64,000 bases of DNA from Bacteroidota bacterium (GCA_049644265.1 JBARRO010000048.1:2886-66885), one strand, 5' to 3'; counted from the stretch's first letter, positions 26,937 through 59,744 are shown. The notes: generated from the sequence alone by a model not told the origin. Numbers and translations are program-made.

Positions 26937-26960
26937 TTATCTGTCCACAAGATTTGAAAG

Positions 26961-27386
26961 ATACCACGAAGGACACCAAGAACACTAAGGGTAAATACGC
27001 AGCCTTCAATGAACGATGTCTCATTCGTGTTATTCGTTGCATTCGAGAAATTCGTGTCTCAGTAAGTGACCTGATCTTCGTGCTCCCCGTGTCCTTCGTG
27101 GTTATACGTTAAACCAGGGGGTAACCCAGATATACTTAACCGGATTCGCACCGAACGTTTTTCAAACATCGAACTGTCCGCTGAGAATTGAAAGTCGTTT
27201 TACCACGAAGGGCACAAAGGACACTAAGTAATATGTGCTCTTGAAATATCTCTTTAGCTCTACTCGTTGCATTCGAGAATTCGTGTTTCAGTAAGTGACC
27301 TGATCTTCGTGCTCTTCGTGTCCTTCGTGGTTATATGTTAAACCAGGGGGTAACCCAGATATACTTAACCGGACTCGCACCGAACG
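26961..27386. repeat. Tandem duplication (~190-bp units, ~90% identical) containing elements bounded by 14-bp inverted repeats
   Basis: Unit 1 26961-27157 and unit 2 27200-27386. Each holds ACCACGAAGGACAC ... GTGTCCTTCGTGGT termini (26963-27102; 27202-27331) and internal ATTCG(T/A)N motifs at exact 9-bp spacing (27023, 27032, 27041, 27050). Unit 1 also duplicates the last ~55 coding bp of the subunit-IV-like cyt b gene. Confidence 0.8.
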
Positions 27387-28233
27387 CAAGCGGAGCCAGC
27401 CGCAAGATAATCTTGATGATCAACCCCACCATGGTGACGAACAAAAACGATACAATTGAATATCTCAGAAACCCGAGTTTTTTCATGAGCTCTGTATTCT
27501 GCTTCTTCAACCAATACAGCGGAATCGTGGAATAATAACCCAGCACCACGACGGCGCCGAAGATGAAAGCTACAGGATTGATTGAGGCATCCGGCATGCG
27601 GGTTGGGATCCCGAACATCTCCGAAAAATCGACGTTCGTCAGGACGGCAACGTAGTGCGGATCCCATCTTTCGCCGGGCAAAAAGAAGTTCCACCCAGGC
27701 CCCCGGAGAAACGTTCCGATGAAGATCAGGAATACCCAGAGGATGAGAAAACCGAACGCAAATGTGGTCACCGCAAACTTGCGTTCCTTAAACGTGTAGT
27801 AGCCGTTCCCTTTCTCGTTGATGTCGATGTACGGGATGGCCATGAGCCCGACAATAATGAGAGAAGGAAGCACTACGCCTGCAATCCACGGATCAAAATA
27901 CACGAGCATTTCCTGAAGTCCGAGAAAATACCAGGGCGCCTTCGACGGATTGGGCGTGAGCGCGCGGTTCGCAGGCTCTTCAAGCGGAGCGTCGAGCGTG
28001 ATGGACCAGATAACCATCACCGCCATCACGGCAATTGTCGCCAGAAACTCCACGCGCACGAGATACGGCCAGACCTGTACCTTGTCATCCTGCTTCGCCT
28101 CATCCGGCAGATCCTGACTGTCATTCTTGCGCGCCTTCTTCCAGGCATGGATGGTGAAGTAGACGACTGAAACCAACAGAAGAACAATCGGGATATTGTC
28201 CGGCTTCGTGATGATTTCGAGGAACTGGCTCAT
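27331..28233 (-). CDS. Cytochrome b C-terminal-domain subunit (subunit-IV/PetD-like, extended)
   Basis: 300 aa with multiple TM helices. PWYFLGLQEML motif corresponding to the conserved PEWY region of cyt b / b6f subunit IV. Confidence 0.7.
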   Translation of the reverse strand: MSQFLEIITKPDNIPIVLLLVSVVYFTIHAWKKARKNDSQDLPDEAKQDDKVQVWPYLVRVEFLATIAVMAVMVIWSITLDAPLEEPANRALTPNPSKAPWYFLGLQEMLVYFDPWIAGVVLPSLIIVGLMAIPYIDINEKGNGYYTFKERKFAVTTFAFGFLILWVFLIFIGTFLRGPGWNFFLPGERWDPHYVAVLTNVDFSEMFGIPTRMPDASINPVAFIFGAVVVLGYYSTIPLYWLKKQNTELMKKLGFLRYSIVSFLFVTMVGLIIKIILRLAPLAFGASPVKYIWVTPWFNI

Positions 28234-28294
28234 AGGGTGCTCTCAAACATGTTTTTGGCAGTGCCGATGACGGGTGTAGAACTGGTGAATTTAG

Positions 28295-28403
28295 CCGCAA
28301 AAGTCGCCAAGGAGTCGCAAAGGGCGCAAAGCAAAAATTAATTCATGACTTTTGTCTTCTCTTTGCGATCTTTGCGTCTACTCTGCGTCCTTTGCGGTTT
28401 GCT
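28295..28403. promoter_or_regulatory. Dyad-symmetric array: 3x CGCAAAG then 3x CTTTGCG (long imperfect hairpin) between the two cyt b genes
   Basis: CGCAAAG at 28297, 28316 and 28325. CTTTGCG at 28361, 28370 and 28390, with mirrored 9/19-20-bp spacings around a centre near 28346. Either a stem-loop in the intercistronic mRNA or a binding array for a dimeric regulator. Confidence 0.4.
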
Positions 28404-28404
28404 T

Positions 28405-30396: not shown

Positions 30397-32154
30397 TTGA
30401 ACCTACAGGTCATTGTTGCTACTGTCATTAATGGGTGCCTTGCACACGGCTCGTCAAAATGCTATATTGACACGGTTCGAGGAGCCACGTATCACTTTTC
30501 GGAAACCTTCCCCATGACCTGGATCGACTACAAGGACCTCAACATCACCGATGGAGCATTTAGTCGGTTATTCCTCGACTATATCGGCGATTACCAAAAG
30601 GTTCAGAAATTCTACGGCGGCAACTTCCGGGATGAGAGCGCCTGGCGCTCCGTGCTGGAAAAAGTCTCAAATCGTGCGATGGATCGCGGGCCGATCGTCC
30701 AGATCCTCTCCAACCAGAACCGCAATTTCCAGTGCGGCATCAAGACTTTGGCGAATATCGACCTCCTGTTGAACGACAACACCGTTGCCGTCGTCACGGG
30801 ACAACAGGTCGGCCTCTTTACGGGTCCCCTCTATACCATCTACAAAACCCTGACGGCGATCAAACTCGCGGAGCAGATCAATGCAAAGTACCAGGACTAT
30901 CACGCTGTGCCGGTGTTCTGGCTGGAGGGCGAGGATCACGACTACGAAGAAGTGACCAGGATTAATTTGATTAATGGATCGAACGATCTGGTTCATATCG
31001 AATATCCTCTTGAAGCGAAGAGAGAAAAGAAGAACGTCGGGGCGGTCGGGAAAATTGAATTTACGGACTCGATCAACGACCTTTTCGGAGCGATCGATCA
31101 GACGCTCATCCAGACGGAGTTCAAGCCGAAGGTTTTGGACCTCTTCAAAACAGCGTATCAGAAGGGAATGACCTTCAACAAAGCCTTTGTGCATTTGATG
31201 AATGTTCTGGTTGAAGACTCGGGATTAATCTTTTTCGACCCGAACGATCCCGATGCCAAGAAACTCGTAGCTCCCATTTTCCAACGGGAGATCACGGATA
31301 CGCCGAAGATCGGACAGCTCGTGATCGACCAAAGTGTAGAGCTCGAAAACATTTACCATGCACAGGTGAAGCCCCGCTCGATCAACCTTTTCCTTTTTCA
31401 TGGAGGCGGACGGTATCCCATCGAGCCCCACCCAGACGGCTACTCACTAAAAGGAACCCGCCAGCATATCACGAAGGAAGAGATGAGCGGATTTCTTAAG
31501 AATTCGCCCGAGCTGTTCAGTCCGAATGTTGTGCTCAGACCGATATGTCAGGACTGGCTCCTCCCCACCGCCGCCTACGTAGCAGGACCCTCGGAAGTCG
31601 CTTATTTTGCGCAATTCCGGCCGTTGTACGAAGAATTCAACATACCCGAGCCAATCATTTATCCGCGGGCAAGTGTGACAATACTTGAAGAAAAGGTGGA
31701 GAAAGTGTTGACCCGGTTTGCATTGCAGGTCACACAGTTTTTTGAGGATGTGGAGTTTCTGAAGCAGAAGATCGCGGTGCAGATTTCGGATTTCAAAGTC
31801 GATGAACTCTTCGCCAGCACCAACGGCGCCATCGAAGAATCTTTGAACAGTTTGCGAAGCGGGATGCAGACCATCGATCCAACCCTTATGGGAGCGCTCG
31901 ACAACACACTCGGAAAGATCAAATCCCAGATCGATGTGTTGAAAGAGAAGACCCTTGCTGCGCAGAAGCGTCAGCACGAAGTCTACCTGCGTCAAATCGA
32001 CAAGGCAGCAATTTTCCTGTTTCCGAACTCAAACTTCCAGGAGCGCGAGCTGAACGTGCTGTATTTCTTGAATAAGTATGGATTGGAATTTGTGCGATGG
32101 CTGAATAATGAGATAGAGATTGATAAGTTTAAGCATCAGGTGGTGAAATTGTAG
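30397..32154 (+). CDS. bshC: Bacillithiol biosynthesis cysteine-adding enzyme BshC
   Basis: VVTGQQVGLFTGPLYTIYKTLTAIKLAEQ...VPVFWLEGEDHDYEEV closely matches the B. subtilis BshC/YllA signature as recalled. True start probably MTWIDYKDL (~30514), preceded by a TTGACA-N17-TATCAC promoter-like element. Confidence 0.85.
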   Translation: MNLQVIVATVINGCLAHGSSKCYIDTVRGATYHFSETFPMTWIDYKDLNITDGAFSRLFLDYIGDYQKVQKFYGGNFRDESAWRSVLEKVSNRAMDRGPIVQILSNQNRNFQCGIKTLANIDLLLNDNTVAVVTGQQVGLFTGPLYTIYKTLTAIKLAEQINAKYQDYHAVPVFWLEGEDHDYEEVTRINLINGSNDLVHIEYPLEAKREKKNVGAVGKIEFTDSINDLFGAIDQTLIQTEFKPKVLDLFKTAYQKGMTFNKAFVHLMNVLVEDSGLIFFDPNDPDAKKLVAPIFQREITDTPKIGQLVIDQSVELENIYHAQVKPRSINLFLFHGGGRYPIEPHPDGYSLKGTRQHITKEEMSGFLKNSPELFSPNVVLRPICQDWLLPTAAYVAGPSEVAYFAQFRPLYEEFNIPEPIIYPRASVTILEEKVEKVLTRFALQVTQFFEDVEFLKQKIAVQISDFKVDELFASTNGAIEESLNSLRSGMQTIDPTLMGALDNTLGKIKSQIDVLKEKTLAAQKRQHEVYLRQIDKAAIFLFPNSNFQERELNVLYFLNKYGLEFVRWLNNEIEIDKFKHQVVKL

Positions 32155-32367
32155 GTTGTCGATTGTAGATTGTCGATTGTAGATTGTAGATCGAGATGGA
32201 ACAGTTGAAAGTTGTAAGTTGAAAGTTAAGAGTTCCGAGTTGTGAGTTTAGAGTTTCCAGTTTTGCATGTTTCACTATTCACGATTTACGATTCACTATC
32301 TACGGTTTACTTTTCACCTTTCACTTTTCGCTTCTCTAGCTCCTTCACCTGCCCTAAGATCTCGCAT
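32155..32367 (+). repeat. Array of 30 in-phase degenerate heptanucleotide repeats (intercistronic bshC to ICMT)
   Basis: From 32155, unbroken 7-nt phasing: gttgtcg attgtag x4 ... gttgaaa gttgtaa gttgaaa gttaaga gttccga gttgtga gtttaga gtttcca gttttgc ... actattc acgattt acgattc actatct acggttt acttttc acctttc acttttc ... ending 1 nt before the ATG at 32366. First half lacks C, second half is G-poor. Confidence 0.85.
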
Positions 32368-32803
32368 GGACTCCATCGTTGCATCAAGAATCGGTCTGGT
32401 CGTTGCCGTTGCAAGCATGGTGACTCTTGTTTTCCGGCAATCGATCTTCGGTGTCGGGGCGGTAGCGATAGGCGTACAAATTGCAGCGGCGATTCTCATG
32501 CTTTGGGCCCGTCTTACGTTTGGCGGACGGAGTTTTCATGCATCGGCAGATCCCACAGAAGGTGGTTTGGTTACGTCGGGACCGTATCGATACCTACGCC
32601 ATCCGATTTATGCGTCCATAATGTATTTCCTGTGGGCCGCTGCATTGTCTCACTTCTCCGTTTTGAACACTCTCCTTGCAGTCGCCGCAACATCCGGCCT
32701 CCTTTTGCGCATGTATGCTGAAGAGCGGTTGGTCGTGGAACGATATCCCGAGTACAGTTCTTACGCTGCCCGCACCAAACGCATTGTTCCGTTTGTTTTC
32801 TGA
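32267..32803 (+). CDS. Isoprenylcysteine carboxyl methyltransferase (ICMT/PEMT) family membrane methyltransferase
   Basis: Likely start MDSIVAS (ATG 32366). C-terminal GPYRYLRHPIY...RMYAEERLV motif diagnostic of the ICMT family. The upstream part of the listed ORF is the repeat array, not coding. Confidence 0.7.
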   Translation: MFHYSRFTIHYLRFTFHLSLFASLAPSPALRSRMDSIVASRIGLVVAVASMVTLVFRQSIFGVGAVAIGVQIAAAILMLWARLTFGGRSFHASADPTEGGLVTSGPYRYLRHPIYASIMYFLWAAALSHFSVLNTLLAVAATSGLLLRMYAEERLVVERYPEYSSYAARTKRIVPFVF

Positions 32804-32818
32804 CTCCATGACTCTCCC

Positions 32819-34099: not shown

Positions 34100-34251
34100 C
34101 CTGGGATTCGGGGGTTTAAAGCCATTTCACAGAGGACACAGAAGTTCAAAACCGAAAATGAAAATGATATGAGATGGATTCCAAACCATTCAATCACAAT
34201 CTCTTCTCTGTGACCTCTGCTTCTCTTTGTGATCTCTGTGAAATGTTTCTA

Positions 34252-34299
34252 TTAAAGAAAAATCCTCACACCGATGGAAAGTCTTTCAGCGTGAGGATT
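34252..34299 (-). terminator. Intrinsic terminator downstream of pnp
   Basis: Minus strand: AATCCTCAC-(21-nt loop with internal GAAAG/CTTTC)-GTGAGGATT followed by TTTTTCTTT. Confidence 0.6.
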
Positions 34300-34317
34300 A
34301 ACGAACAAGAAAAAGGA

Positions 34318-36824: not shown

Positions 36825-36948
36825 TGCTGCTCCTTATGATAAATGAAATATTTTTCTAGCGTCGTATTCTAAATTGCCACGAGAAGTCACAAAAAACACA
36901 GACTCAAACCTTTGTGCATTGGGTGTGTTTTTGTGGCTCACAACATGG

Positions 36949-44971: not shown

Positions 44972-45099
44972 TTGGTCAATTCAACAAATGAACAATGAGC
45001 AATGTGAGAAGAACAGTAAGCAGTTGTCAGTAGACAGTACCAGGAAAAACACGAGGAGCGAGGAATCTGTAACTGACAACTGGAAACTCGAAACTTCTC
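44966..45099 (-). repeat. Array of ~17 in-phase degenerate heptanucleotide repeats (intercistronic trpE to trpG)
   Basis: Plus-strand phasing atgaaca atgagca atgtgag aagaaca gtaagca gttgtca gtagaca gtaccag ... atctgta actgaca actggaa actcgaa acttctc. The transcribed (minus) strand is G-depleted upstream of the trpG start. Confidence 0.8.
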
Positions 45100-58748: not shown

Positions 58749-58880
58749 TAACACTTGGTTCTTGGATACAGGACGTTGGGTGTTGGAAATTGGAAAGATG
58801 AACCATTCAAAGTCCAATGACCAATATTCAATAGTCAATATCCAATTCCCAATAATCAACGTGACCTAAAGGAGCCATTT
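58749..58880 (+). repeat. Array of 18 in-phase degenerate heptanucleotide repeats (intercistronic, upstream of the ABC ATPase)
   Basis: cacttgg ttcttgg atacagg acgttgg gtgttgg aaattgg aaagatg aaccatt caaagtc caatgac caatatt caatagt caatatc caattcc caataat caacgtg acctaaa ggagcca then ttt ATG. The distal half is NNNNTGG, the proximal half CAATNNN, G-poor. Confidence 0.85.
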
Positions 58881-59615
58881 ATGCAGCCAACTCCCATGTT
58901 TGAAGCCGTGAATCTCACCAAGAGGTATGAGGACGGCGTGCTTGCACTCGATCGTGTTTCGTTCCGTGTCGATCGCGGAGAGATCTACGCGATGCTTGGC
59001 GCGAACGGAGCCGGAAAGACGACCGCCATCAACATCTTCCTGAACCTGATCGAGCCGACCGAAGGAGAAGCACGTATCGATGGTGTCGCGACACATAAAG
59101 AGCCGCTGGTGGCAAAAAAGAATGTCGCATACGTTTCAGAAAACGTCATGCTGTATCCGAGCTTTACCGCGATTCAGAACCTCGATTATTTCGCAAGACT
59201 CGGTGGAAAAACCCAGTATACCCGGGAGGATTACCGAAAGGTCCTGCGGCGCGTCGGTTTGCAGGAGGAGGCGCACACGAAGAGACTCAAGGGATTCTCC
59301 AAGGGAATGAGGCAAAAATGCGGAATTGCCATAGCGATCCTTAAAGATGCTCCGGCCATTCTCCTCGATGAACCCACATCGGGGCTTGACCCTCAGGCGG
59401 CTTACGAATTCCAACGCCTCCTTGAGTCCCTCCGCGACGAAGGCAAATCGATTATCATGTCCACCCATGACATCTTTCGCGCCAAAGAAGTCGCGGATAC
59501 TGTCGGTATCATGAGCAAAGGAAGACTCGTCATGCAGAAATCTTCGGCCGAGCTGCAAGGAAAGGACCTTGAACAGGTATATATGAAACATATGGCGGGA
59601 CATGGAGAGGAGTAG
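58881..59615 (+). CDS. ABC transporter ATP-binding protein
   Basis: Walker A GANGAGKTT, signature FSKGMRQK, Walker B ILLDEPTSGLD, H-loop. Confidence 0.9.
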   Translation: MQPTPMFEAVNLTKRYEDGVLALDRVSFRVDRGEIYAMLGANGAGKTTAINIFLNLIEPTEGEARIDGVATHKEPLVAKKNVAYVSENVMLYPSFTAIQNLDYFARLGGKTQYTREDYRKVLRRVGLQEEAHTKRLKGFSKGMRQKCGIAIAILKDAPAILLDEPTSGLDPQAAYEFQRLLESLRDEGKSIIMSTHDIFRAKEVADTVGIMSKGRLVMQKSSAELQGKDLEQVYMKHMAGHGEE

Positions 59616-59744
59616 AGGAGTAATGGAGTAGATGAGTAGTGGAGTAGGTGCGTTTATGAGTCGATGAGTCTGTGAGTCTATAAGTCAATGAGTAACAGGG
59701 CAAACTGCTAACTGGAAACTGAAAACTGACAACTGGCAACTCCT
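59616..59744 (+). repeat. Array of 18 in-phase degenerate heptanucleotide repeats (intercistronic ATPase to permease)
   Basis: ggagtaa tggagta gatgagt agtggag taggtgc gtttatg agtcgat gagtctg tgagtct ataagtc aatgagt aacaggg caaactg ctaactg gaaactg aaaactg acaactg gcaactc then ct ATG. Shares the aactgacaactgg(a/c)aact motif with the trpE-trpG array. Confidence 0.85.

What the first reader, a model, noticed from the sequence alone, without database searches (positions are those of the whole stretch)
32155..32367. Thirty perfectly phased degenerate heptanucleotide repeats form the entire bshC-ICMT intercistronic spacer
Starting one base after the bshC stop and ending one base before the ICMT start, the sequence parses without any indel into 30 heptads. 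The consensus drifts smoothly along the array: ATTGTAG x4, then GTTGAAA/GTTNNGA x8, then GTTTNNN x3, then ACNNTTC x8, then others. The first half contains no C and the gene-proximal half almost no G, so the transcript cannot form stable intramolecular helices. Perfect 7-nt phase maintenance over 210 bp, despite about 50% sequence divergence between neighbouring units, is not expected by chance. It implies expansion by unit-length slippage with phase-preserving selection. Possible functions are an unstructured translation-initiation leader in an organism with weak Shine-Dalgarno usage, a protein-binding array, or a contraction and expansion-prone variable spacer.
Basis: seen in the sequence. 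Interest (0 to 1): 0.62.

Follow-up and report, generated by a model that had tools for sequence, protein, structure and literature searches.

The report
Slippage-built heptanucleotide repeat spacer between genes
The gap between two genes of an uncultured Ignavibacteriales bacterium is filled by about 25 degenerate 7-base tandem repeats. This is a real, fast-evolving product of DNA slippage of a kind already described in cyanobacteria, giant sulfur bacteria and Bacteroidetes, with no demonstrated function.

Summary
The period-7 signal is real. Lag-7 self-identity is 0.67 against 0.28±0.03 in dinucleotide shuffles (z≈12), with no indel. The description is overstated, though. About 25 units carry the signal, in two runs: 6 units at 32148-32189, starting inside bshC, and 19 units at 32204-32336. 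Two odd heptads separate the runs, and the last 29 nt before the ICMT start (ATG 32366) are non-repetitive. The halves are strongly skewed but not free of C or G. The transcript is predicted to fold into one long rod (-52.5 kcal/mol), no more or less stable than shuffles.

The array is not a one-off. Three more intercistronic spacers in the window (58749-58880, 59606-59744, 44972-45099) have the same build. About 800 kb from 61 related Ignavibacteriales loci have none. Relatives of the ABC-transporter operon show the history. An 84%-identical ATPase relative has 22-32-nt junctions with Shine-Dalgarno sites. The 88-93% relatives have arrays of different length and sequence.

The best reading is a lineage-specific, rapidly turning-over heptanucleotide repeat array, seeded at the bshC stop codon by slippage. 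It serves passively as an SD-less leader. The closest known kinds are Mrázek's long SSRs, cyanobacterial heptamer repeats and MacGregor's TAACTGA repeats. It is a new member of a known kind. No test for a specific function was positive.

The parts
30514..32154 (+). bshC (bacillithiol synthesis). The true start is probably ATG 30514, not the longest-ORF TTG at 30397. The last 7 nt (ATTGTAG, 32148-32154) form unit 1 of the array.
   Evidence: Pfam PF10079 (1.3e-109) and PF24850. All 33 orthologues align from residue 40. Many orthologues also end in ...TGTAG.
32148..32189 (+). Block I: 6 units of ATTGTAG / ATTGTCG / GTTGTCG, with a 14-nt super-period. It overlaps the bshC stop codon.
   Evidence: TRF period 7 with 83% matches and period 14 with 93% matches, both with 0 indels. 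Unit matrix.
32190..32203 (+). Two heptad-length but unrelated units (ATCGAGA TGGAACA). The periodic signal breaks here. The length is exactly 14 nt.
   Evidence: Identity to neighbouring units is 3, 2 and 2 of 7.
32204..32266 (+). Block II: 9 units of GTTnnnA (GTTGAAA, GTTGTAA, GTTAAGA ... GTTTTGC). It is G/T/A-rich and C-poor.
   Evidence: TRF periods 7, 14 and 21.
32267..32336 (+). Block III: 10 units of ACnnTTC (ATGTTTC, ACTATTC, ACGATTC ... ACTTTTC, GCTTCTC). It is C/T-rich and G-poor, and joins block II through transitional units. It is roughly an inverted complement of block I/II-type units.
   Evidence: The profile match of rc(III) to block I is 0.467 and to block II is 0.43. The direct-orientation match of II to III is 0.195 at offset 0 and 0.403 at best.
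32337..32365 (+). Non-repetitive, pyrimidine-rich tail that forms the immediate leader of ICMT. It has no Shine-Dalgarno motif.
   Evidence: Successive-unit identity is 1, 2, 1 and 3 of 7. The upstream sequence is listed. This stretch is largely unpaired in the MFE structure.
32366..32803 (+). ICMT/PEMT-family membrane methyltransferase, 145 aa. It is absent from this position in all related loci examined.
   Evidence: Pfam PF04191 and PF04140. A 100% match to a 145-aa NCBI MAG protein, and homologues are 145 aa. Orthologous loci have convergent aroA or a ugpC-like gene after bshC.
58749..58880 (+). Sister array A2. It has 16 heptads in one register: NNNTTGG x6-7, then CAATNNN x8, followed by an AAGGAG SD. 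It lies between the NPCBM_assoc-domain gene and the ABC ATPase gene.
   Evidence: Hairpin z=-4.0 against within-half shuffles. A 93% relative has only a 47-nt junction here, with no array.
59606..59744 (+). Sister array A3. Octamers GGAGTAGA/TGAGTCNN x about 11 overlap the ATPase stop codon. They are followed by heptamers AAACTGA/TAACTGG/CAACTGG x6, which end 1 nt before the permease ATG. There is no SD.
   Evidence: Reproduced exactly in the independent Logan contig L067. Orthologous arrays differ in L066 and L068.
44972..45099 (-). Sister array A4, between two minus-strand genes. In mRNA sense the whole 128-nt spacer parses into 18 heptads in one register (NNNNAGT type, then NNACTGN/TCATTGN type).
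   Evidence: Hairpin z=-4.2.

Best explanation
The spacer is a lineage-specific heptanucleotide tandem-repeat array. It belongs with the long simple-sequence repeats (STRR-like and TAACTGA-like heptamer arrays). It was built by repeated replication slippage in units of 7, 14 or 21 nt and is decaying by point substitution.

Inferred history:
1. An ICMT-family gene came to lie between bshC and the convergent aroA.
2. The short junction was then inflated. The first run is seeded by the last 7 nt of bshC (ATTGTAG, including the stop codon). Such outward duplications leave the protein unchanged.
3. Further local duplications and substitutions produced the drifting GTTnnnA run.
4. An inverted or complementary run (ACnnTTC) followed.

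Seven-nt slippage is lethal inside genes because it shifts the frame. Arrays therefore survive only between genes, and so they fill the spacers from stop to start.

In operation the array is simply the untranslated intercistronic leader of ICMT. The two genes are presumably co-transcribed, since no terminator lies between them. ICMT would then be initiated without a Shine-Dalgarno site on a G-poor, pyrimidine-rich leader.

Shown here: the periodicity, the decay of unit similarity with distance, the overlap with the stop codon, the restriction to one lineage and the rapid turnover. Inferred: the order of events, co-transcription and the mode of initiation. I found no evidence that the specific sequence is under selection.
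For: - Periodicity and absence of indels.
- Unit identity decays with distance from 0.63 to 0.27, which is the signature of local duplication followed by divergence, not of a fixed binding motif.
- There are higher-order 14- and 21-nt periods.
- Unit 1 equals the bshC terminus, and orthologues without any array also end in (T/C)TGTAG.
- Array A3 likewise starts in the ATPase stop codon. The ATPase C-terminal tail varies (GHGEE, GHGGE, GHGE) against the ancestral GHVN/GHTN.
- An AAACTCA unit inside permease codons 3-5 is in register with A3.
- There are 4-5 such arrays in 64 kb, against none in about 800 kb from 61 related loci.
- bshC is followed directly by a convergent gene in relatives.
- An 84% relative has 32- and 22-nt junctions with SD motifs. 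A 93% relative lacks A2 altogether but has a different octamer array after the ATPase. An 88% relative has a 272-nt spacer with (NAACTCN)x6 before the ATG.
- There is no terminator in the spacer and no Rfam match.
- Published precedent: heptanucleotides are the commonest long SSR in prokaryotes, sporadically distributed and attributed to polymerase slippage. TAACTGA arrays overlap upstream stop codons, lie just upstream of SD-less starts, and are absent from close relatives that have shorter spacers (PMC4679880).
Against: - All four arrays share the same polarity, G-rich/C-poor then C-rich/G-poor. They keep one register across the switch. Pure neutral slippage does not predict this. With n=4 it is not significant, and stop-codon seeding explains it for only two of the four.
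- Zero indels over about 190 nt despite heavy substitution is somewhat surprising if decay were purely neutral.
- Heptamers of the AACTG/AACTC type persist immediately upstream of the permease ATG in both this genome and the 88% relative. The SD present in more distant relatives has been lost there. This hints that the start-proximal repeats may have taken over a role in initiation.
- No orthologous copy of the bshC-ICMT spacer itself was available, so turnover at this locus is extrapolated from the sister arrays.
Confidence: 0.6

Rival explanations
1. The repeats are a functional translation-initiation leader. The start-proximal, G-poor heptamers would be a binding platform for ribosomal protein S1, a cold-shock protein or another RNA-binding protein, replacing the Shine-Dalgarno interaction.
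For: - ICMT, the permease (A3) and the gene behind A4 have no SD.
- A more distant relative with compact junctions does have SD motifs.
- AACTG/AACTC heptamers sit directly before the permease ATG in two species that are 88% identical.
- The last roughly 44 nt before the ICMT ATG are largely unpaired in the MFE structure.
- Precedent: most TAACTGA sets lie a few nt upstream of SD-less start codons (PMC4679880). Heptamer repeats near start codons in Nostoc have been implicated, tentatively, in expression (10.1101/2022.06.06.494920).
Against: - Accessibility of -30 to +10 is not above the shuffled-spacer null in any of the four arrays: A1 0.47 vs 0.40±0.07, with A3 and A4 below the null mean.
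- There is no depletion of start codons or enrichment of stops beyond what composition predicts.
- Units differ completely between arrays and drift within each array, so no common motif exists.
- In A1 the repeats stop 29 nt before the ATG.
- A2 keeps a canonical AAGGAG after the array.
- A2 is absent from a 93% relative.
Confidence: 0.2
2. The array works as a long RNA (or DNA cruciform) hairpin. The G-rich 5' half would pair with the C-rich 3' half, giving an intercistronic stabiliser or processing site (REP- or RNase III-like). Alternatively it would bring the bshC stop and the ICMT start together for translational coupling.
For: - The MFE of the spacer is a single rod of -52.5 kcal/mol whose base pairs the bshC 3' end (GGUGAAA) with UUUCACC units.
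- Sister arrays A2 and A4 are significantly more stable than within-half shuffles (z=-4.0 and -4.2) and than unit permutations (z=-2.6 and -3.3).
- Several other spacers in the window are palindromes with periodic arms.
Against: - For this array the stability is exactly what composition gives: z=0.04 against dinucleotide shuffles, -0.30 against within-half shuffles and +0.46 against unit permutation. A3 behaves the same way.
- The block order is I-II-I'-II', not a nested palindrome.
- There is no covariation data, because no homologous copy exists.
- There is no terminator-like stem plus U-tract.
Confidence: 0.1
3. The array is a contingency (phase-variation) locus. Gain or loss of 7-nt units would switch or tune ICMT expression within populations.
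For: - Block I is a nearly perfect 6-unit tract (83-93% matches).
- Sister arrays differ in unit number between close relatives.
- SSRs upstream of genes are known to act this way (reviewed in PMC4679880).
Against: - Most of the array is too degenerate to slip at high frequency. Neighbour identity is about 63%, and the longest exact repeat is 18 nt.
- A 7-nt change in a 211-nt untranslated spacer alters no reading frame and no known promoter spacing.
- The downstream gene is a housekeeping-type membrane methyltransferase, not a surface antigen.
- No population data are available.
Confidence: 0.05
4. The array is an assembly artefact or a chimeric low-complexity join.
For: The sequence comes from a metagenome-assembled genome. 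No independent assembly spanning this array could be retrieved.
Against: - The units are degenerate. The longest internal exact repeat is 18 nt and no 20-mer recurs in the window, so assembly is unambiguous.
- The array joins two intact genes precisely.
- Three sister arrays have the same architecture. One of them is reproduced base for base in an independent Logan assembly of another run, and related arrays occur in other samples.
Confidence: 0.03

Closest known systems
Long simple-sequence repeats with 7-nt units (LSSR; Mrázek, Guo & Shah 2007, as summarised in PMC4679880)
   Same: Tandem heptanucleotide units in non-coding DNA. They are abundant in a few scattered lineages and absent from relatives, and are attributed to polymerase slippage with a preference for 7 nt.
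   Different: Classical LSSRs are near-perfect tracts of one unit. Here only block I is near-perfect. The rest is a heavily diverged array whose consensus drifts, with a complementary second half. It also occurs in an Ignavibacteriales genome, a group not named in the summaries of that survey that I read.
TAACTGA intergenic direct repeats of marine Beggiatoaceae, cyanobacteria and some Bacteroidetes (MacGregor 2015, PMC4679880)
   Same: Heptamer arrays that overlap the upstream stop codon and run toward an SD-less downstream start codon. They are mixed with other heptamers in some Bacteroidetes and Microcystis. Close relatives have shorter spacers without repeats. They show indels in 7-nt increments. 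Sister array A3 carries near-identical units (AAACTGA, TAACTGG) ending 1 nt before an ATG.
   Different: The units of the bshC-ICMT array itself (ATTGTAG, GTTGAAA, ACTTTTC) are unrelated to TAACTGA. The repeats end 29 nt before the ATG. The copies are degenerate rather than exact. The TAACTGA sets in the BOGUAY genome are short (2-6 copies) and almost never inverted.
Cyanobacterial heptamer repeats: the STRR families of heterocystous cyanobacteria (recalled from my own knowledge of Mazel et al. 1990), and the contiguous TTTTGAA/TTCAAAA heptamers near start codons in Nostoc PCC 7120 (10.1101/2022.06.06.494920)
   Same: Tandem heptamers in intergenic regions near start codons or promoters. A unit and its reverse complement are both used, and secondary structure between them has been suggested. 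GTTGAAA and TTTCAC here resemble TTTTGAA and TTCAAAA. Function is still unknown.
   Different: The phylum is different. The Nostoc repeats are genome-wide families of a few fixed units, whereas here every array has its own drifting units. No experimental data exist for this organism.
REP/BIME-type intercistronic palindromes
   Same: Located between co-transcribed genes, with two compositionally complementary halves. The sister arrays A2 and A4 form significantly stable hairpins.
   Different: There is no conserved family sequence. The arms are internally periodic. For the array in question, the stability does not exceed that of shuffled controls.

Membership tests
Heptanucleotide long simple-sequence repeat (LSSR / STRR-type array) | Head-to-tail copies of a 7-nt unit, longer than expected by chance | tested here: met
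   Lag-7 identity is 0.667 against 0.28±0.03 in shuffles. TRF finds period 7 with 0 indels.
Heptanucleotide long simple-sequence repeat (LSSR / STRR-type array) | Non-coding location, because a 7-nt unit is incompatible with a reading frame | tested here: met
   The array lies between the bshC stop (32154) and the ICMT start (32366). The in-frame ATG at 32267 was rejected as a start because homologues are 145 aa.
Heptanucleotide long simple-sequence repeat (LSSR / STRR-type array) | Many arrays per genome in some lineages, with absence in relatives | tested here: met
   There are 4-5 arrays in 64 kb, against 0 arrays of period 7 or 8 in about 800 kb from 61 related loci. Compact junctions occur in an 84% relative.
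Heptanucleotide long simple-sequence repeat (LSSR / STRR-type array) | High identity between units (a simple repeat) | tested here: inconclusive
   Block I shows 83-93% matches. Over the whole array, neighbouring units are only 63% identical.
Heptanucleotide long simple-sequence repeat (LSSR / STRR-type array) | Copy-number differences between strains or species in unit-length steps | tested here: inconclusive
   This is seen for the sister arrays A2 and A3 in 88-93% relatives. No relative closer than 75% is available for the bshC-ICMT junction.
TAACTGA start-codon-proximal repeats (MacGregor 2015) | The unit is TAACTGA | tested here: not met
   The units are ATTGTAG, GTTnnnA and ACnnTTC. Only the sister arrays A3 and A4 carry AAACTGA/TAACTGG/TAACTGA-like units.
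TAACTGA start-codon-proximal repeats (MacGregor 2015) | Repeats within a few nt upstream of a start codon that lacks an SD, sometimes overlapping the upstream stop codon | tested here: inconclusive
   There is no SD, and the stop-codon overlap is present. However, the repeats end 29 nt before the ATG.
REP-like or terminator hairpin | Arms more complementary or stable than composition predicts; for terminators, a GC-rich stem plus a U-tract | tested here: not met
   z=0.04, -0.30 and +0.46 under the three null models. No terminator-like site lies in the spacer.
Curated cis-regulatory RNA (Rfam) | A match to a covariance model | tested here: not met
   There is no hit at E≤1 in 31900-32600. There is no hit at gathering score anywhere in the window.
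Phase-variable contingency SSR | A perfect tract whose length change alters a reading frame or promoter spacing, with length polymorphism in populations | not testable with these tools
   No read-level or strain-level data are available. The tract is degenerate (longest exact repeat 18 nt) and lies in a long untranslated spacer.

The most novel reading that the evidence does not exclude
In this Ignavibacteriales clade, heptad arrays might not be junk. They could be a selected, self-renewing kind of intercistronic element. The C-free, stop-codon-seeded 5' half and the G-poor 3' half would be kept in one register and in fixed G-to-C polarity. Together they would replace Shine-Dalgarno-based initiation, for example as a register-tolerant platform for S1 or another RNA-binding protein, or as a slidable long-range duplex that couples the upstream stop to the downstream start. 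Their production could depend on a lineage-specific replication or repair peculiarity that generates 7-nt duplications.
Probability: 0.12. Interest if true: 0.7.

Novelty: new member of a known kind. Interest (0 to 1): 0.35.

Why it matters
Intergenic heptamer arrays have been known since about 1990 in cyanobacteria, and later in Beggiatoaceae and Bacteroidetes, but nobody knows what they do. This case adds an Ignavibacteriales lineage. More usefully, it gives a small comparative series: an 84% relative with compact SD-bearing junctions, and 88-93% relatives with arrays of different size and sequence. The series shows the arrays arising de novo inside operons, seeded at gene termini, and turning over faster than the flanking genes. 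It also shows SD motifs disappearing where arrays sit against the start codon. That offers a tractable system for asking whether such arrays are neutral by-products of a 7-nt slippage bias or have been co-opted for SD-independent initiation. In practical terms, these arrays inflate spacers, alter the C-terminal tails of upstream proteins and create spurious long ORFs, such as the 178-aa ICMT reading. Annotators should be aware of this.

Tried and rejected
- **N-terminal extension of ICMT.** The in-frame ATG at 32267 would translate block III. I rejected it as the start because the 100%-identical database protein and nearly all homologues are 145 aa. The 48-aa minus-strand ORF 32129-32275 has a 7-aa periodicity, which is an automatic consequence of a 7-nt repeat, and I did not pursue it.
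- **Stable hairpin.** Rejected for this array by three null models.
- **Unstructured leader and translational insulator.** Start-site accessibility, stop-codon enrichment in the 5' half and start-codon depletion in the 3' half were all indistinguishable from composition-matched shuffles. The one exception was a nominal stop-codon excess in A3 (P≈0.02).
- **Known RNA family, terminator or promoter.** None was found. The two minus-strand sigma-70-like matches in block I are by-products of the periodicity.
- **Orthologous comparison of the bshC-ICMT spacer.** The genome contigs and metagenome-contig scans gave no relative above 75% BshC identity, and none carries ICMT at this position.
- **Independent assemblies of this array.** Exact-protein look-ups for the ABC ATPase, ICMT, AroA, BshC and the adjacent 4Fe-4S protein all returned nothing. 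Identical S15 and permease proteins did recover 100%-identical Logan contigs from SRR28062278 and SRR28062494, but these do not reach the array.
- **Mobile-element insertion (MITE-like).** There are no terminal inverted repeats or shared family sequence, and every array has its own units.

Full report
**1. What is there**

The region lies between a gene with BshC Rossmann-like and coiled-coil domains (Pfam E=1e-109) and a 145-aa PEMT/ICMT-family methyltransferase. Orthologues align with BshC only from residue 40. Its real start is therefore probably ATG 30514, and its stop is TAG 32152-32154. The ICMT start is ATG 32366. The 100%-identical database protein and almost all homologues are 145 aa, so the in-frame ATG at 32267 is not the start.

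**2. Is the periodicity real?**

Yes. Over 32148-32343, self-identity is 0.667 at lag 7, 0.626 at lag 14 and 0.566 at lag 21. All other lags give 0.19-0.32. Two thousand dinucleotide-preserving shuffles give 0.28±0.03 with a maximum of 0.40, so z≈12. Shuffling the two compositional halves separately changes nothing. Tandem Repeats Finder reports periods 7, 14 and 21 with 0% indels.

The description needs trimming:
- The array begins at 32148. The last 7 nt of bshC (ATTGTAG, including the stop codon) are unit 1.
- Identities between successive units are 5,5,6,6,7 | 3,2,2 | 6,6,5,5,5,5,5,4,4,4,5,6,4,4,4,6,6,5 | 1,2,1,3 of 7.
- That gives a 6-unit run (32148-32189; ATTGTAG/ATTGTCG), then two unrelated heptads (32190-32203).
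- Next comes a continuous 19-unit run (32204-32336), in which GTTnnnA grades into ACnnTTC.
- The last 29 nt (32337-32365) are non-repetitive.
- The common register between unlike blocks is only weakly defined.
- The compositional skew is strong but not absolute: 8 C in the first 106 nt and 11 G in the last 107 nt.

**3. The folding claim is wrong**

In fact the G-rich half pairs with the C-rich half. The MFE of 32140-32375 is one long rod of -52.5 kcal/mol.

This is exactly what composition predicts. The z-score is 0.04 against dinucleotide shuffles, -0.30 against shuffles within each half and +0.46 against permuting the units. The spacer is therefore neither unusually structured nor unusually unstructured.

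Predicted accessibility of -30 to +10 around the ICMT start is 0.47, against 0.40±0.07 for shuffled spacers. This is not significant.

**4. It is not a one-off**

A scan of the window for local periodicity found three further arrays. All are intercistronic, and each fills its spacer in a single register:
- **A2, 58749-58880.** NNNTTGG x6-7, then CAATNNN x8, then an AAGGAG SD.
- **A3, 59606-59744.** Octamers GGAGTAGA/TGAGTCNN overlap the ABC-ATPase stop codon. Heptamers AAACTGA/TAACTGG/CAACTGG then end 1 nt before the permease ATG.
- **A4, 44972-45099, minus strand.** 18 heptads from stop to start.

All four run G-rich/C-poor then C-rich/G-poor. A2 and A4 form hairpins that are significantly more stable than controls (z≈-4). 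A1 and A3 do not. Several other spacers are palindromes whose arms are 9-11-nt tandem units.

**5. Lineage**

The BshC protein finds only Ignavibacteriales/'Bacteroidota' MAGs, at 75% identity or below. The ICMT and permease proteins match, at 100%, proteins of an NCBI 'Bacteroidota bacterium' MAG contig of 82,817 bp.

In about 800 kb from 61 related loci, the same scan finds no array of period 7 or 8. The only hits have periods 6, 9 or 12, plus one of period 11.

After bshC, the relatives have a convergent aroA or a ugpC-like ATPase gene, never ICMT. The bshC-ICMT junction and its spacer are therefore specific to this lineage.

**6. Comparative series for the sister arrays**

The ABC-transporter operon has closer relatives, which give a graded series:
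- **84%-identical ATPase (L069).** The junctions are 32 and 22 nt, with AGGAGG and GGAG motifs and no repeats.
- **93% relative (L068).** The junction where this genome has the 132-nt A2 is 47 nt and has no repeats. After the ATPase stop there is an octamer array (TGGAGTAA x5, then CAACACTC x2) related to A3 but different from it.
- **88% relative (by permease identity; its ATPase is 95% identical).** The gene map of the ENA contig gives an 87-nt and a 272-nt junction, against 132 and 129 nt here. The Logan contig L066 shows (NAACTCN)x6 directly before the permease ATG, together with CGAAA/TTTCGGA inverted heptads.

Other observations point the same way:
- The ATPase C-terminal tail differs among these species (GHGEE, GHGGE, GHGE) against the ancestral GHVN/GHTN. 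The array overlaps the gene end.
- In A3, an AAACTCA unit within permease codons 3-5 is in register with the array.
- Another junction is 219 nt in this organism and 33 nt in the 88% relative.
- A3 is reproduced base for base in an independent Logan assembly.

**7. Mechanism**

Four observations fit repeated local slippage and duplication in multiples of 7 nt, followed by substitution:
- the decay of unit similarity with distance (0.63 to 0.27);
- the 14- and 21-nt sub-periods;
- the identity of unit 1 with a gene terminus that orthologues without arrays also possess (...TGTAG);
- the explosive, species-specific turnover.

Seven-nt slippage is tolerated only outside reading frames. Outward duplication of a stop-codon-containing terminus leaves the protein intact. 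This explains why the arrays fill spacers from stop to start, and why the 5' units of A1 and A3 are C-poor: stop codons contain no C.

The complementary 3' half is most simply an inverted copy that has since diverged. In A2 and A4 the two halves are still clearly complementary. In A1 and A3 they are no longer so.

Tests for specific function were negative or uninformative. What remains suggestive is twofold. The SD is lost where arrays abut the start codon. AACTG/AACTC heptamers persist before the permease ATG in two species. I therefore give about 0.2 to a co-opted role in SD-independent initiation.

**8. Relation to what is known**

MacGregor (2015, PMC4679880) describes TAACTGA heptamer direct repeats in Beggiatoaceae, cyanobacteria and five Bacteroidetes. 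These repeats:
- overlap upstream stop codons;
- lie within a few nt of mostly SD-less start codons;
- are mixed with other heptamers in Gramella, Aequorivita, Elizabethkingia and Microcystis;
- are absent from close relatives that have shorter spacers;
- differ between strains by 7-nt indels.

The paper also summarises Mrázek et al. (2007). That survey found heptanucleotides to be the commonest long SSR in prokaryotes, sporadically distributed, and attributed them to polymerase slippage.

A Nostoc PCC 7120 preprint reports contiguous TTTTGAA and TTCAAAA heptamers (reverse complements of each other) near start codons genome-wide. It offers only tentative regulatory effects.

The present array has the defining features of this kind, but it has its own degenerate units and sits in a different phylum-level group. 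It fails the specific TAACTGA criterion. Only A3 and A4 carry such units.

**9. Verdict**

The repeat is real and statistically solid. It is best explained as a young, fast-evolving product of heptanucleotide slippage that serves as a passive intercistronic leader. It is a new member of a known kind.

The uniform G-to-C polarity and the conservation of register across the switch are unexplained. Read mapping, a whole-genome survey of the clade and reporter assays would settle whether anything more than mutation bias is at work.

Noticed in passing
window 58749-58880, 59606-59744 and 44972-45099: Three further intercistronic arrays of 7- or 8-nt units have the same build: G-rich units followed by roughly complementary C-rich units, in a single register from stop to start. 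A3 and A4 share TAACTGA-like units (AAACTGA, TAACTGG, CAACTGG).
   Followed up: yes
window 26960-27390: A tandem duplication of a unit of about 230 nt (copies 79-95% identical). Each copy carries inverted arms made of 9-nt periodic units (ACCACGAAGGACACCAAGAACACTAAG / CTTCGTGCTCCCCGTGTCCTTCGTGGT). It may be a REP- or MITE-like family of this genome.
   Followed up: partly
window 28234-28404, 34100-34317 and 36825-36948: Other intergenic spacers are imperfect palindromes whose arms are short tandem units: GTCGCAAAGG-type with CTTTGCG; CACAGAGGA with CTCTGTG, plus inner AAAATGA heptads; and CACAAAAACACAG with GTGTGTTTTTGTG. The 5' arm is purine-rich each time.
   Followed up: no
window 59598-59615 (ABC ATPase C-terminus); proteins P0241-P0250: The last residues of the ATPase vary among close relatives (GHGEE, GHGGE, GHGE) against GHVN/GHTN in more distant ones. 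The octamer array reaches into the gene end, so the repeats remodel a protein C-terminus.
   Followed up: partly
L067 4535-4753 (about window 63943 onward, running past the window end) versus L066 4505-4537: The junction between a Tricorn/PD40-like gene and corA is 219 nt in this organism but 33 nt in the 88% relative. Spacer inflation in this lineage is therefore not limited to the recognisable arrays.
   Followed up: no
window 30397-30513: The longest bshC ORF starts at TTG 30397, but all 33 orthologues align only from residue 40 (MTWIDYKD, ATG 30514). The extra 39 codons are probably not translated.
   Followed up: partly
window 32155-32818 compared with L001-L061: The slot between bshC and the convergent aroA is variable among Ignavibacteriales. 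It may be empty, hold a convergent ugpC-like ABC ATPase (for example L051 1276-2376), or hold ICMT, as here. This looks like a local hotspot for gene rearrangement.
   Followed up: partly
window 32148-32190, minus strand: Two sigma-70-like promoter matches (TCGACA-17-TACAAT and TCTACA-17-TACAAT) fall inside block I on the minus strand. They are generated by the repeat periodicity itself and point into bshC antisense.
   Followed up: no
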